Assembly (NCBI GenBank): GCA_001823695.1
Contig: MHVD01000017.1
Span: 1-59,238 of the forward strand
Direction of reading: 5' to 3'
From: Candidatus Zambryskibacteria bacterium RIFCSPHIGHO2_01_FULL_43_25
GTDB taxonomy: Bacteria; Patescibacteriota; Minisyncoccia; Phycocordibacterales; Zambryskibacteraceae
DNA length: 59,238 nt
Shown here: positions 23,488-25,616 of the stretch, piece by piece
Numbering within the stretch: the first letter of the stretch is position 1
How the letters are laid out: the number at the start of each line of letters is the position of its first letter
Notes under the pieces: model-generated
What the model saw: the letters and a program-made list of their open reading frames with translations, nothing else
What the model was told of the DNA's origin: nothing
The model's database searches: none
Program-made: the position numbers and the translations under genes

Positions 23488-24336
23488 ATGGCAATAAAGA
23501 AGTACAAACCGGTAACTCCGTCGCGCCGTCAGATGTCTGACGTTAAATTGGGCTCCATCCTAACTGCCAAAAGTTCGCACAAACCACTTACTAGAGGTAT
23601 GTCGCGGTCAGTGGGGCGCAATAATGCCGGCAGAATAACCGTTCGGCACAAAGGCGGCGGCCATAAAAGACTTTTTAGAGACATTGATTTTCTTCTTGAT
23701 AAGAAAGACGTGCCGTTTGTTGTAGAGAGTATTGAATACGACCCGAACAGAAGCGGCCTTATCGGCTTGGTCGTCTATAGAGACGGCGCCAGAAGATATG
23801 TTCTGTTGCCTAAGGGAGCTCAAGTCGGCGACTCTTATCTGATATCGGAAAATGCGCCGGTCAAAACAGGCAACCGCCTGCCTCTAAAGAATATTAGCGT
23901 CGGCACTTTTGTTTTCAATGTAGAACTGAAAAAAGACGGCGGCGCCAAGATGGGGCGATCAGCCGGAAATTATATAGAAGTTTTGGCAAAGGACGGCGGT
24001 TTAGTTGACCTTAAAATGCCCTCTACTGAAATCAGGAAAGTGAGCGAAAACTGCTGGGCCACTGTGGGAGAGGTCTCAAACGAAGAGCATCATCTGGTAA
24101 ATTTTGGAAAAGCTGGCCGTAGCCGATGGCTCGGCATTAGACCGACCGTGCGTGGTTCCGCTATGAATCCAGTAGATCATCCTTATGGGGGAGGTGAAGC
24201 ACGCTCTGGCCGCGGTCTCCGCCGGGCGAAAAGCGCCTGGGGCAGGCCTACGGGCAAGGGTCAGAAATCAAGGCGAGCCAAGAAATACTCCAATATATCT
24301 ATTGTTTCAAGAAGAAAGGTGGGCAAGAGGCGCTAA
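23488..24336 (+). CDS. rplB: 50S ribosomal protein L2
   Basis: GRNNAGRIT, EYDPNRS, RGSAMNPVDHPYGGGE; start ATG 23488. Confidence 0.98.
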   Translation: MAIKKYKPVTPSRRQMSDVKLGSILTAKSSHKPLTRGMSRSVGRNNAGRITVRHKGGGHKRLFRDIDFLLDKKDVPFVVESIEYDPNRSGLIGLVVYRDGARRYVLLPKGAQVGDSYLISENAPVKTGNRLPLKNISVGTFVFNVELKKDGGAKMGRSAGNYIEVLAKDGGLVDLKMPSTEIRKVSENCWATVGEVSNEEHHLVNFGKAGRSRWLGIRPTVRGSAMNPVDHPYGGGEARSGRGLRRAKSAWGRPTGKGQKSRRAKKYSNISIVSRRKVGKRR

Positions 24337-24380
24337 CTAAAGCCAAAAATCAATATCAATCCGAGGGGGTTACCATGAGG

Positions 24381-24571
24381 GTAGCAGACCTCTACTTTCA
24401 GTAAGGTCGAACCTTGCTGAAATTGCGCTTGACGACAATGAAGCTCGCTCTTGAAGCGAGAAAACCCCAAACGCTCTAGTAGCAGACCTCTACCCAGAGG
24501 AAGACAGGGGTGTGCTACAGGTACACGCCAAGAGTGCATCCGGGTGCACCGTAGCAGACCTCTACCCAGAG
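24381..24571 (+). repeat. Three direct copies of GTAGCAGACCTCTAC interspersed with unique hairpins
   Basis: Copies at 24381, 24479 and 24551; copies 2 and 3 share 21 bp (adding CCAGAG). Confidence 0.9.
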
Positions 24572-24588
24572 AAAACCACAAGAAAGGA

Positions 24589-24621
24589 GCCGTCCGTGTA
24601 TTCTATACCGGCGGTTTTTTG
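24589..24621 (+). terminator. Intrinsic terminator inside the S10 operon
   Basis: gccgtc-c-gtgta/ttc/tatac-c-ggcggt stem followed by a T run. Confidence 0.7.
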
Positions 24622-24640
24622 TTACTTTTCTTGATTTGTA

Positions 24641-24667
24641 TTGACATTATGGGTCTTATTCTATAAT
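24641..24667 (+). promoter_or_regulatory. Internal promoter candidate upstream of rpsS
   Basis: TTGACA..TATAAT consensus hexamers, but the spacer is only 15 nt. Confidence 0.5.
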
Positions 24668-24756
24668 ATCTTTGCAAGCTCGAAGCGAGCTTTTTGTATT
24701 CTTGTTGGCTGTTTCTCTTTTAAGGAATTCAGAGCCAATGCCAAACAAGTAAGTCT

Positions 24757-24782
24757 ATGACTAGATCGTCACACAAAGGTCC
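24757..24782 (+). pseudogene. Duplicated 5' end of rpsS (false start; the frame runs on to a stop at 24856-24858)
   Basis: Encodes MTRSSHKGP versus the real MTRSSYKGP at 24868. Confidence 0.85.
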
Positions 24783-24827
24783 ACCCCAAACGAATCCGTC
24801 AGCCGGCGGATCGTACGGGGCGAGAAG
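24783..24827 (+). repeat. ACCCCAAA-hairpin-TACGGGGCGAGAAG repeat, copy 4
   Basis: accccaa-acgaatccg..cggatcgt-acggggcgagaag immediately after the rpsS false start. Confidence 0.85.
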
Positions 24828-24867
24828 TTGTAAAGCCGATCTAGGTGTGAATTTATAAGTAAAATCA

Positions 24868-25212
24868 ATGACACGATCATCTTACAAAGGTCCGTACGTT
24901 TACGACAGACTCCTCAAAAAGATTGAGGGGAGAAAACCCGACCAGGTTGGAGTTGTTAAAACCTGGGCGCGCGACAGCCAAATATCGCCGGAGATGGTTG
25001 GCTTTACCTTTGGCGTTCATAATGGACGCGAGCACTTGGAAGTTTTTATTACTGAAGACATGGTGGGCCACCGGCTTGGAGAGTTTTCTCCGACTCGAAA
25101 GTTTATTAAGCATGGAGGCAAGATGCAGAAGGAGATTGAACAGCAGAAGAAAGACTCGGAAATAGCCGCAGCTCAAGCCGCTAAGGCCACCACTGCGCCT
25201 CCGCAAAAATAA
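24868..25212 (+). CDS. rpsS: 30S ribosomal protein S19
   Basis: [32 protein letters not shown]. Confidence 0.98.
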
Positions 25213-25217
25213 AAGAC

Positions 25218-25616
25218 ATGGCCCAAATAACGGCACAACTGAATAACCTGCGCCATTCGCCTAGAAAGGTTCGTTTGGTTGCCGACCTGGTCCGCGGAAA
25301 GAGTGTAACTTCCGCTCTCAATTCTTTGGCCTTTGCCGACAAAAAAGCGACAAGACCAATCATAAAACTTATCAAGTCCGCGATTGCCAATGCCAAGACG
25401 CAGAGTCTGTCAGAGGACAAACTAACGATAAAAGAAATCAGGGTTGACGGCGGTTCGGTGCTCAAGCGTTTCAGACCGGCTGCCTTTGGCCGCGCCCACC
25501 CGATTAGGAAAAGGTCAAGCCATGTAAGAATTATACTGACAACAAACAACAAACAACCTGCAACTAAAGCCAAGATTGCAAAGAATTCAAGGAAGTCTGT
25601 TGTCAGCAGCAAGTAA
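25218..25616 (+). CDS. rplV: 50S ribosomal protein L22
   Basis: SPRKVRLVADLVRGK, SAIANA, KRSSHVRI. Confidence 0.98.
   Translation: MAQITAQLNNLRHSPRKVRLVADLVRGKSVTSALNSLAFADKKATRPIIKLIKSAIANAKTQSLSEDKLTIKEIRVDGGSVLKRFRPAAFGRAHPIRKRSSHVRIILTTNNKQPATKAKIAKNSRKSVVSSK

What the first reader, a model, noticed from the sequence alone, without database searches (positions are those of the whole stretch)
24375..24621. Three-copy GTAGCAGACCTCTAC hairpin array in the rplB 3' region
Seen: an identical 15-mer (GTAG stem, 7-nt loop, CTAC) at 24381, 24479 and 24551, with periods of 98 and 72 nt. The spacers themselves form hairpins (tttcagtaagg/ccttgctgaaa, ctcgct/agcgag, gtgca/tgcac), and the array ends in a terminator. 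Possible readings (inference): a multi-site protein-binding or processed ncRNA cotranscribed with rpsJ-rplB; recombination sites delimiting mini-cassettes; or a decayed SD-led orphan with VADLY repeats (GAGGGG-ATG MRVADLYFQ* at 24375; copies 2 and 3 are in one frame). Exact DNA identity of the repeats favours a nucleic-acid-level role.
Basis: partly seen in the sequence, partly recalled or inferred. Interest (0 to 1): 0.68.

Follow-up and report, generated by a model that had tools for sequence, protein, structure and literature searches.

The report
Leftover CRISPR array between ribosomal genes
The three identical 15-base words are the front ends of CRISPR repeats: a small leftover of a miniature (Cas12f, type V-F) CRISPR locus between two ribosomal-protein genes of a tiny groundwater bacterium that has lost the matching cas genes, so it is a known kind of element in an unusual place.

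Summary
GTAGCAGACCTCTAC occurs exactly three times (24381, 24479, 24551), nowhere else in the 603-kb genome, and in no shuffle.

It is not a set of 4-bp hairpins (dG -0.1 kcal/mol). It is the 5' arm of a 40-nt palindromic CRISPR repeat.
- 24479-24518 is one intact repeat.
- 24519-24550 is a 32-nt spacer.
- 24551-24590 is a degenerate terminal repeat, followed by a terminator.
- 24381-24478 matches the conserved stretch upstream of the first repeat in relatives (putative tracrRNA tail plus leader). A 27-nt hairpin is inserted in it.

Evidence:
- The repeat and leader are homologous to arrays next to cas12f (PADLOC V-F, E 1e-144) and cas1 in related Paceibacterota.
- One relative carries the whole cas12f-cas1-tracr-array cassette at the same rplB|rpsS junction.
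- Near relatives keep leader and repeats but carry different spacers.

The window's genome (93% complete) has no cas12f, no cas1, and lacks the conserved ~110 nt that lie further upstream in the cas-linked loci. The best reading is a vestigial, cas-less mini-array, probably read through from rplB and probably inert. This is a new member of a known kind, of moderate-low interest. The side observations are more interesting than the array.

The parts
24337..24380 (+). Short post-rplB stretch with the SD-like GAGGGGG and the ATG at 24375. No function is assigned and the 9-codon ORF is probably fortuitous.
   Evidence: Only the first ~25 nt (GCCAAAAA..ATCAATC) align securely with the post-rplB sequence of relative L062. 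The alignment further on is ambiguous. No promoter-like site was found.
24381..24395 (+). Copy 1. It is 15 nt identical to the 5' arm of the CRISPR repeat. It sits where cas-linked loci have the invariant GTAGCAG motif (putative anti-repeat segment of the tracrRNA tail).
   Evidence: Exact match. Its position relative to CCCCGTAGCAGGGCC of L062, L071, L074, G006 and G267 is shown. Near relatives have GTAGCAGGGCCGTCTC here.
24396..24422 (.). A 27-nt hairpin, TTTCAGTAAGGTCGAACCTTGCTGAAA. It is an insertion of an IS200/REP-like hairpin and accounts for the 98-nt period instead of about 72-74 nt.
   Evidence: The same hairpin occurs three times on contig C19, flanking and inside a Y1_Tnp (IS200-like) gene with Pfam E 7.5e-11. 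It is absent at this position in relatives X13, X14 and L062, whose period is 74 nt. It is present inside the array of L062.
24423..24443 (+). Rearranged remnant. It is either the broken first stem-loop (SL1) of the tracr tail or the -35 region of the tracr promoter (TTGCGCTTGACG) joined to the leader by a deletion.
   Evidence: Two competing alignments to L062 exist. SL1 pairs are broken in the window row of the RNAalifold table.
24444..24460 (+). Stem-loop SL2 (CTCGCT CTTGA AGCGAG) of the conserved tracr-tail/leader.
   Evidence: It is conserved with compensatory changes in L071 (CTGGCT/AGCCAG), G006 (CCTAGG/CCTAGG) and L074. Five of its 6 pairs show changes on both sides.
24461..24478 (+). 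AAAACCCC motif plus a 10-nt linker at the end of the leader. AACCCC is complementary to GGGGU of the repeat's 3' arm.
   Evidence: The AAACCC core is invariant in all 7 aligned loci. 24433-24478 is 45/46 identical in L062, 24433-24502 has 1 difference in the X13 contig, and 24438-24502 has none in the X14 contig.
24479..24518 (+). The single intact 40-nt CRISPR repeat, GTAGCAGACCTCTACCCAGAGGAAGACAGGGGTGTGCTAC. Copy 2 is its first 15 nt.
   Evidence: It is homologous to the repeats of the cas12f/cas1-adjacent arrays of G006, L071, L069, L074/G095, G267 and G048, with an invariant 3' end GGGGTxTGCTAC. It folds as a 12-13-bp palindrome at -16.7 kcal/mol. Rfam gives a weak CRISPR-DR31 match (16.6 bits, E 3, below threshold).
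24519..24550 (+). A 32-nt spacer, AGGTACACGCCAAGAGTGCATCCGGGTGCACC.
   Evidence: Near relatives carry unrelated 31-33-nt sequences between unchanged repeats. No target was found in IMG/VR (exact match), in GenBank phages, or in the own genome.
24551..24590 (+). Degenerate terminal repeat. Its first 21 nt are identical to the repeat (copy 3) and its 3' arm is lost.
   Evidence: The same kind of terminal repeat, including a shared CCACAAG(A/G)AA, ends the arrays of L071-L073, L069 and L074. It is conserved in relative X16 with one change at 24572.
24588..24621 (+). Intrinsic terminator (hairpin plus U-run) that closes the array and the rpsJ-rplB transcription unit.
   Evidence: Fold and sequence. 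An equivalent terminator follows the arrays of L071, L069 and L074. The simple consensus scan did not list it.
24641..24692 (+). Context, not part of the array: the rpsS promoter (TTGACA-17-TAATAT) and a 5' leader hairpin AAGCTCGAAGCGAGCTT followed by a U-run.
   Evidence: It is conserved upstream of rpsS in most of the family gaps read in full, including the 101-104-nt gaps that hold nothing else.

Best explanation
The array is a vestigial, cas-less CRISPR mini-array of a miniature type V-F (Cas12f) system, lodged between rplB and rpsS.

The 15-mer is the first 15 nt (the 5' arm) of a 40-nt palindromic repeat. Read 5'->3', the locus contains:
- the tail of the conserved stretch upstream of the first repeat (putative tracrRNA tail plus leader): a GTAGCAG motif (copy 1), a broken stem-loop 1 with a foreign 27-nt hairpin inserted, an intact stem-loop 2, and AAAACCCC;
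- one intact repeat (copy 2);
- one 32-nt spacer;
- a terminal repeat that keeps only its first 21 nt (copy 3);
- an intrinsic terminator.

Shown: homology of the repeat, leader and trailer to cas12f/cas1-linked arrays. Shown: a complete cassette at the same junction in another Paceibacterota genome. Shown: spacer replacement between unchanged repeats in near relatives. Shown: absence of cas12f, cas1 and the conserved upstream ~110 nt from this assembly.

Inferred: the stretch has no promoter of its own, so it is transcribed by read-through from rplB and stopped by the terminator. Without Cas12f and a full tracrRNA the transcript cannot act as a guide, so the locus is an inert relic. Its terminator still serves as the end of the upstream operon. 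The confidence given is for 'CRISPR-derived remnant'. 'Inert' on its own is about 0.75.
For: - Relative G006 has a 40-nt repeat 80% identical to window 24479-24518, in an array of period 71-72 nt. The array lies next to Cas1 (Pfam E 4.8e-20) and a 416-aa Cas12 V-F effector (PADLOC PDLC01225, E 4.6e-144).
- G095/L074, G267, G048, L069 and L071 have repeats of the same family with an invariant 3' end.
- In L071-L073 the gene order is rplB - cas12f - cas1 - tracr - leader - 4 to 5 repeats - degenerate terminal repeat - terminator - rpsS promoter - rpsS. This is the same junction as in the window. Leader plus repeat match at 95/124 nt and the trailer at 89/130 nt.
- The window's 72-nt period equals a 40-nt repeat plus a 32-nt spacer. 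The 98-nt period equals about 71 nt plus the 27-nt inserted hairpin.
- Logan contigs of relatives (X13, X14, X16) and JGI contig L062 keep the leader (45/46 identical in L062; 0-1 differences in the X13 and X14 contigs), the repeats and the terminal repeat. Their spacers are different, and X13 has at least two.
- L073 lacks the leader-proximal spacer of L071 and L072.
- The stretch between GTAGCAG and the repeat forms two stem-loops, and 8 of 13 pairs show compensatory changes across 7 loci. This matches the compact tracrRNA architecture described for ultracompact type V systems (bioRxiv 10.1101/2025.01.29.635576).
- The own genome has no Cas12f homolog, no Cas1, no conserved upstream (tracr 5') part and no other array.
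Against: - Only one full repeat and one spacer remain, so the classical 'clustered, regularly interspaced' criterion is met only marginally. Rfam gives only a sub-threshold CRISPR-DR hit.
- No protospacer was found for any spacer.
- No RNA data exist, so transcription is only inferred.
- The genome is 93% complete, so cas genes could lie in the missing 7%.
- Leader, repeat and trailer are 98-100% identical to those of relatives whose L2 protein is only 77% identical. That is more conservation than expected for a decaying relic. It points to recent transfer or to retained function.
- The origin of copy 1's full 15-nt identity to the repeat is unresolved, because relatives share only 7 nt there. 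Two alignments of 24381-24443 compete.
Confidence: 0.85

Rival explanations
1. A working orphan guide module. The remaining anti-repeat-like copy 1, stem-loop 2, AAAACCCC, the intact repeat and the spacer are transcribed at high level from the ribosomal operon. They are used by a Cas12f supplied in trans, from the unassembled 7% of the genome, a plasmid or phage, or a partner cell.
For: - Leader, repeat and trailer are 98-100% identical to those of relatives whose r-protein genes differ by 11-15% at DNA level.
- The one spacer differs from all spacers seen in relatives.
- Relatives (L062 type) also lack cas genes between rplB and the tracr, yet carry several different spacers.
- Copy 1 can pair with the whole 3' arm of the repeat (sequence).
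Against: - There is no cas12f, cas1 or upstream (5') tracr part anywhere in 603 kb.
- In cas-linked loci the effector lies directly beside the array.
- Stem-loop 1 is destroyed and interrupted by a foreign hairpin.
- The array is identical in nine assemblies, so no ongoing acquisition is seen.
Confidence: 0.1
2. A CRISPR-independent structured small RNA or protein sponge whose three GTAG-loop-CTAC hairpins bind a protein.
For: - Three exact copies.
- The + strand of 24337-24625 folds better than shuffles (z = -3.95).
- A terminator lies at the end.
Against: - The 15-mer hairpin has dG -0.1 kcal/mol.
- Homologous repeats do not conserve a CTAC at that position.
- The excess folding energy is explained by the palindromic repeat, stem-loop 2, the inserted hairpin and the terminator.
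- The motif is absent from 86 family genomes except as part of CRISPR repeats.
Confidence: 0.02
3. Recombination (att-like) sites bounding mini-cassettes at an insertion hotspot.
For: The rplB-rpsS gap is a hotspot with different cargo genes in different genera. Gaps range from 101 to 1000 nt and many hold a promoter, an ORF and a terminator.
Against: - The cargoes of other genera are not bounded by this 15-mer.
- No integrase lies nearby.
- The repeat geometry is fully accounted for by CRISPR homology.
Confidence: 0.02
4. A decayed SD-led orphan gene with VADLY peptide repeats.
For: - GAGGGGG-N6-ATG lies at 24375.
- Copies 2 and 3 are in one frame.
- The 21-mer's only JGI hit (L057) lies in frame after a stop codon.
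Against: - Relatives replace the 32 nt between copies 2 and 3 by unrelated sequence of different length (net indel not a multiple of 3 in the X13 and X16 contigs).
- Copy 1 is in another frame.
- The ORFs have no Pfam family.
Confidence: 0.01

Closest known systems
Type V-F (Cas12f / Cas14-like, ultracompact) CRISPR-Cas loci with a tracrRNA, as found in CPR/Patescibacteria and DPANN (PADLOC/CRISPRCasTyper model Cas12_x1; compact tracr architecture in bioRxiv 10.1101/2025.01.29.635576)
   Same: - The repeat family is the same, with an invariant 3' end GGGGTxTGCTAC.
- The 71-73-nt period and 31-33-nt spacers are the same.
[quoted passage not shown]
- The array ends in a degenerate terminal repeat and a terminator.
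- One full locus lies at the same rplB|rpsS junction.
   Different: - There is no cas12f and no cas1.
- The conserved ~110 nt that lie further upstream in the cas-linked loci are missing.
- Stem-loop 1 is broken.
- Only one repeat-spacer unit is left.
- The effector family itself has no sequence relative among solved structures.
Orphan / isolated CRISPR arrays (for example the E. faecalis CRISPR2 locus, PMC4580645; survey of isolated arrays, PMC5294841)
   Same: An array without adjacent or genomic cas genes, whose repeats match those of a cas-bearing locus in related genomes.
   Different: E. faecalis CRISPR2 keeps several spacers and works when Cas9 is supplied. Here a single spacer remains, the co-required tracrRNA is truncated, and function in trans is untested.
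REP/RAYT and IS200/IS605 end hairpins (applies only to the 27-nt insert at 24396-24422)
   Same: A perfect short palindrome whose other copies flank a Y1 (HUH) transposase gene in the same genome.
   Different: There are only four copies in the genome. One lies in frame inside the transposase ORF. No conserved GTAG head was seen at the C19 copies. Mobility was not shown.

Membership tests
CRISPR array | Direct repeats of about 23-50 nt, regularly interspaced by unique spacers of similar length | tested here: inconclusive
   One full 40-nt repeat, one 32-nt spacer and one terminal repeat with 21/40 nt (period 72) are present, plus a 15-nt fragment upstream. This is the minimum possible array, and it would not pass a standard array finder on its own.
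CRISPR array | Repeat homologous to repeats of a bona fide cas-adjacent array | tested here: met
   The G006 array lies next to cas1 and cas12f, and its repeat is 80% identical. L071, L069, L074/G095, G267 and G048 belong to the same repeat family.
CRISPR array | Repeats and leader conserved while spacers differ between related strains | tested here: met
   X13, X14, X16 and L062 keep the leader and repeats (98-100%) and carry unrelated 31-33-nt spacers. X13 has at least 2 spacers. Within the window's own population there is no variation.
CRISPR array | Spacers match mobile elements (protospacers) | tested here: not met
   No exact match in IMG/VR for two spacers. Only chance-level hits in GenBank phages. 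No self-target. CPR phages are poorly sampled, so this is weak negative evidence.
CRISPR array | Transcribed and processed into crRNAs | not testable with these tools
   No RNA run holds the stretch.
Type V-F CRISPR-Cas system (complete) | Cas12f effector gene in the locus or genome | tested here: not met
   No match in G000 by the genome search at E <= 0.001 or by tblastn at E < 5 (only chance hits). The assembly is 93% complete.
Type V-F CRISPR-Cas system (complete) | Adaptation gene cas1 | tested here: not met
   PF01867 is not found in G000, while the control genomes do give matches. tblastn is also negative.
Type V-F CRISPR-Cas system (complete) | Conserved non-coding (tracrRNA-like) region upstream of the array | tested here: inconclusive
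   The 3' ~100 nt (GTAGCAG motif, SL2, AAAACCCC) are present. The upstream ~110 nt (GTGAGAAAAACA...TTTTTCTCAC...TTCCTTGTGG) are absent from the locus and the genome, and SL1 is broken. That this region is the tracrRNA is an inference from conservation and covariation, not shown by RNA data.
REP/RAYT or IS200-type hairpin (27-nt insert only) | Palindrome copies flanking a Y1/HUH transposase gene | tested here: met
   Copies lie at C19:1818-1842 and 2560-2584, flanking the Y1_Tnp gene 1844-2533 (Pfam E 7.5e-11). A third copy lies inside it.
REP/RAYT or IS200-type hairpin (27-nt insert only) | Many dispersed extragenic copies | tested here: not met
   Only 4 copies exist in 603 kb.

The most novel reading that the evidence does not exclude
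The cas-less module (anti-repeat-like segment, stem-loop, repeat, one spacer) is not a relic. On this reading it is a mobile guide-RNA cassette that moves between species. It is 98-100% identical in genomes whose L2 proteins are 77% identical. It is expressed from the ribosomal-protein operon and serves a Cas12f supplied in trans by another replicon, a phage or a partner cell, or it acts as a Cas-independent antisense regulator.
Probability: 0.08. Interest if true: 0.7.

Novelty: new member of a known kind. Interest (0 to 1): 0.33.

Why it matters
CPR/Patescibacteria are reported to be almost devoid of CRISPR-Cas (PMC4742961; PMC6509639). This locus documents how such a system disappears. A complete miniature Cas12f cassette sits between rplB and rpsS in one Paceibacterota lineage. 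A tracr-plus-array module without adjacent cas genes sits there in a second lineage. A one-spacer stump sits there in this genome.

It also shows that the rplB|rpsS junction, normally one of the most invariant gene boundaries in bacteria, is a cargo hotspot in this family, with rpsS running from its own promoter. For annotation, very short CRISPR remnants will be missed by array finders and can be mistaken for novel ncRNAs. For Cas12f tool development, the aligned set of six natural leader/tracr-repeat loci with covariation may be of some use. None of this changes what is known about CRISPR mechanisms.

Tried and rejected
- An Rfam scan of 23800-25300 at E <= 10 gave only a sub-threshold CRISPR-DR31 hit and a PsrR1 hit on the promoter. 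No tRNA or tmRNA lies in the gap.
- I first read the locus as a REP/BIME-like mosaic, because the 27-nt hairpin recurs at a Y1 transposase. I dropped that for the 15-mer once the G006 array was seen. It stays for the hairpin only.
- Pfam on the gap ORFs (71, 82 and 33 aa) found nothing.
- An exact search for the 21-mer in JGI metagenomes gave one unrelated high-GC contig (L057). In GTDB genomes it gave none. A degenerate 40-mer pattern found only G006.
- Spacer-target searches in IMG/VR, GenBank phages and the own genome were negative.
- A search for RNA-seq runs found none.
- The closest L2 homologs (P0002, P0008) were looked up. P0002 gave the informative contig L062. P0008 has a short gap without an array.
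- The exact deletion history of 24381-24443 could not be fixed. Two alignments to L062 score similarly.
- MAFFT alignment of the 36-41-nt repeats is not structure-aware, so I did not run pair counting on it. I folded each repeat separately instead.
- A PDB sequence search with the G006 Cas12f gave no hit.

Full report
**Observation.** The window is contig C17 of a 603-kb, 93%-complete genome. Homologs of its L2 protein are annotated as Parcubacteria/Paceibacterota, and the same locus occurs in groundwater and soil or sediment metagenomes. rplB ends at 24336 and rpsS starts at 24868, leaving a 531-nt gap.

GTAGCAGACCTCTAC occurs exactly at 24381, 24479 and 24551, with periods of 98 and 72 nt. 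Shuffles give a mean of 0.06 matches. The word is found nowhere else in the genome or in 86 genomes of the family. Nine contigs from independent assemblies are identical over the whole gap. The supposed GTAG/CTAC hairpin is not real: its energy is -0.1 kcal/mol.

**The clue.** A DNA search of relatives with the gap gave a short match of 24475-24518 to genome G006. There the matching sequence is a 40-nt direct repeat with a 71-72-nt period. It lies next to a Cas1 gene (Pfam E 4.8e-20) and a 416-aa protein that matches the PADLOC type V-F effector model Cas12_x1 end to end (E 4.6e-144).

In the direction of transcription the G006 repeat reads GTAGCAGAACTCTCTCTGAGTTAAGACAGGGGTATGCTAC. Window 24479-24518 reads GTAGCAGACCTCTACCCAGAGGAAGACAGGGGTGTGCTAC. 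More loci with the same effector family carry repeats of the same family, all ending in GGGGT(G/A)TGCTAC. These are G095/L074, G267, L069 and L071-L073, all with cas12f adjacent, and G048, where the context was not examined. Each full repeat folds as a 12-13-bp palindrome, -16.7 kcal/mol for the window's. The 15-mer is simply its 5' arm.

**Anatomy under this reading.**
- 24479-24518 is one intact repeat.
- 24519-24550 is a 32-nt spacer, and 40 + 32 gives the 72-nt period.
- 24551-24590 is a terminal repeat that keeps 21 nt and then degenerates.
- 24588-24621 is a hairpin plus U-run.

The arrays of L071-L073, L069 and L074 end the same way, with a half-degenerate last repeat and a terminator. 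The window's trailer aligns with that of L071 at 89/130 nt, including a shared CCACAAG(A/G)AA.

Upstream of the intact repeat, 24444-24478 is a stem-loop followed by AAAACCCC and a linker. This stretch is conserved in all cas-linked loci. An RNAalifold run on seven loci finds two stem-loops between an invariant GTAGCAG motif and the AAACCC motif, and 8 of 13 pairs show compensatory changes. GTAGCA is complementary to the repeat's 3'-terminal TGCTAC, and AACCCC is complementary to its GGGGT. Two stem-loops plus two unpaired repeat-complementary segments is the compact tracrRNA architecture described for ultracompact type V systems (bioRxiv 10.1101/2025.01.29.635576). That this region is a tracrRNA here is my inference.

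Copy 1 of the 15-mer sits at the position of that GTAGCAG motif. In the window stem-loop 1 is broken. The further conserved ~110 nt upstream (GTGAGAAAAACA...TTTTTCTCAC...TTCCTTGTGG) are missing from the locus and from the genome.

**The 98-nt period.** Between copy 1 and the rest lies a 27-nt palindrome (24396-24422). It recurs three times on contig C19, on both sides of and inside an IS200-like Y1 transposase gene. Near relatives lack it at this place and have a 74-nt distance instead. It is therefore an insertion, and it explains why the first period is 98 nt. The same hairpin also sits inside the array of relative L062.

**Behaviour in relatives.** JGI contig L062 has an L2 protein 77% identical to the window's. 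It carries, after rplB, a terminator and the full tracr-like region. Then follow a leader 45/46 identical to 24433-24478, the same repeat with one extra base, and other spacers. No cas gene lies between rplB and the tracr.

Logan contigs from runs X13, X14 and X16 show the same leader, unchanged repeats and unchanged terminal repeat. Their 31-33-nt spacers are unrelated to the window's. X13 has repeat - TGATCGGTGAAAACGCTCGGGCCTTTGGCGCTT - repeat - a second spacer - terminal repeat. Run X5 holds a further relative with the same leader and a diverged repeat. Conserved repeats with exchanged spacers are the signature of a CRISPR array, and they exclude a conserved ORF.

L071-L073 (Paceibacterota; L2 64% identical to the window's) carry the complete cassette between rplB and rpsS: cas12f, cas1, tracr, leader, 4-5 repeats, terminal repeat and terminator. 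L073 lacks the leader-proximal spacer of the other two. The window thus holds the stump of a cassette that exists intact at the same junction elsewhere.

**What is missing.** The own genome has no Cas12f homolog, no Cas1, none of the conserved upstream (tracr 5') part and no other array-like locus. No promoter-like site precedes the array. Transcription, if any, comes from rplB read-through, which is an inference because no RNA run exists. No protospacer was found.

**Interpretation.** I take the locus to be a vestigial cas-less type V-F mini-array. I am about 0.9 confident that it is CRISPR-derived and about 0.75 confident that it is inert in this genome.

The main reservation concerns conservation. 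Leader, repeat, trailer and the following rpsS promoter are 98-100% identical to those of relatives whose rplB and rpsS differ by 11-15% at DNA level. This suggests recent horizontal spread of the module, or retained function with an effector supplied in trans. I give that rival 0.1. The origin of the full 15-nt identity of copy 1 is unresolved, since relatives share only GTAGCAG. Two alignments of 24381-24443 to L062 compete.

**Comparison with the known.** Orphan arrays are well known (PMC5294841, PMC4580645). Cas12f-type systems in CPR are known. CRISPR-Cas is rare in CPR (PMC4742961, PMC6509639). The finding is therefore a new member of a known kind. Its location inside the S10 ribosomal-protein cluster, and the three-stage decay series at one junction, are the modestly new aspects.

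Noticed in passing
window 24337-24867, and loci L018-L047 (rplB-rpsS gaps of the family): In this family the rplB|rpsS junction is a cargo hotspot. Of 30 loci fetched from the family, the 17 in which both genes lay on the locus have gaps of 101 to 1000 nt. Different genera hold unrelated small genes there, each with its own promoter and terminator. In the other 13 loci rplB was not found within the 1.5-kb flank.
   Followed up: partly
window 24641-24700; L005, L006, L011, L019-L041: rpsS has its own consensus promoter (TTGACA-17-TAtAAT), followed at once by a conserved hairpin AAGCTC-loop-GAGCTT plus a U-run. This holds in most of the gaps read in full, including the 101-104-nt gaps that hold nothing else. 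It could be a 5' stabiliser or an attenuator or autoregulatory leader for the rpsS-rplV-rpsC unit.
   Followed up: partly
G000 contig C19:1800-2800 (L017): An IS200-like Y1 transposase gene (229 aa) is flanked by the 25-27-nt palindrome TTCAGCAAGGTCGAACCTTGCTGAA and also carries one copy in frame inside the ORF. A fragment of a second, oppositely oriented transposase C-terminus follows (2577-2774). The 10-nt arm TTCAGCAAGG equals the loop of tracr stem-loop 1 in G006 and X5.
   Followed up: partly
window 24706-24876: A Logan contig of a relative (run X13) joins 24705 to 24877 with 34 other letters between. It therefore lacks the 'false rpsS start plus CCCC-hairpin-GGGG module'. Genome G002 (L008) has the same module with an exact 26-nt duplicate of its own rpsS start and compensatory stem changes.
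   Followed up: partly
L057 (JGI Ga0247773_1051046), 1016-1039 on the - strand: This is the only JGI hit of the 21-mer. It is a 24-nt identity (AGTAGCAGACCTCTACCCAGAGGA) in a high-GC contig. It starts directly after the stop codon of a 30-aa ORF (MADIKKSEVEEIEILEERVATNVGTVGTPK) that lies upstream of a radical-SAM gene. There is no second copy and no rest of the repeat. It may be chance or a fragment of common origin, and it is unexplained.
   Followed up: no
L069, L074/L075, L058 (G006), L071-L073: The same cas12f-cas1-tracr-array cassette sits at three different housekeeping junctions: rplB|rpsS, downstream of rplJ-rplL, and between rpoD and a DUF2779 gene. This suggests the cassette moves as a unit into conserved operon boundaries.
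   Followed up: partly
L058 4610-4708 (G006:C1:~433109-433207): Part of the G006 CRISPR array is masked as a run of N in the genome collection. The repeats on both sides of the mask are intact.
   Followed up: no
window 24433-24705 versus runs X13, X14, X16 and L062: The non-coding module (leader, repeats, trailer, rpsS promoter and hairpin) is 98-100% identical between lineages whose flanking rplB and rpsS coding DNA is only 85-89% identical (L2 protein 77%). This looks like recent horizontal exchange limited to the gap.
   Followed up: partly
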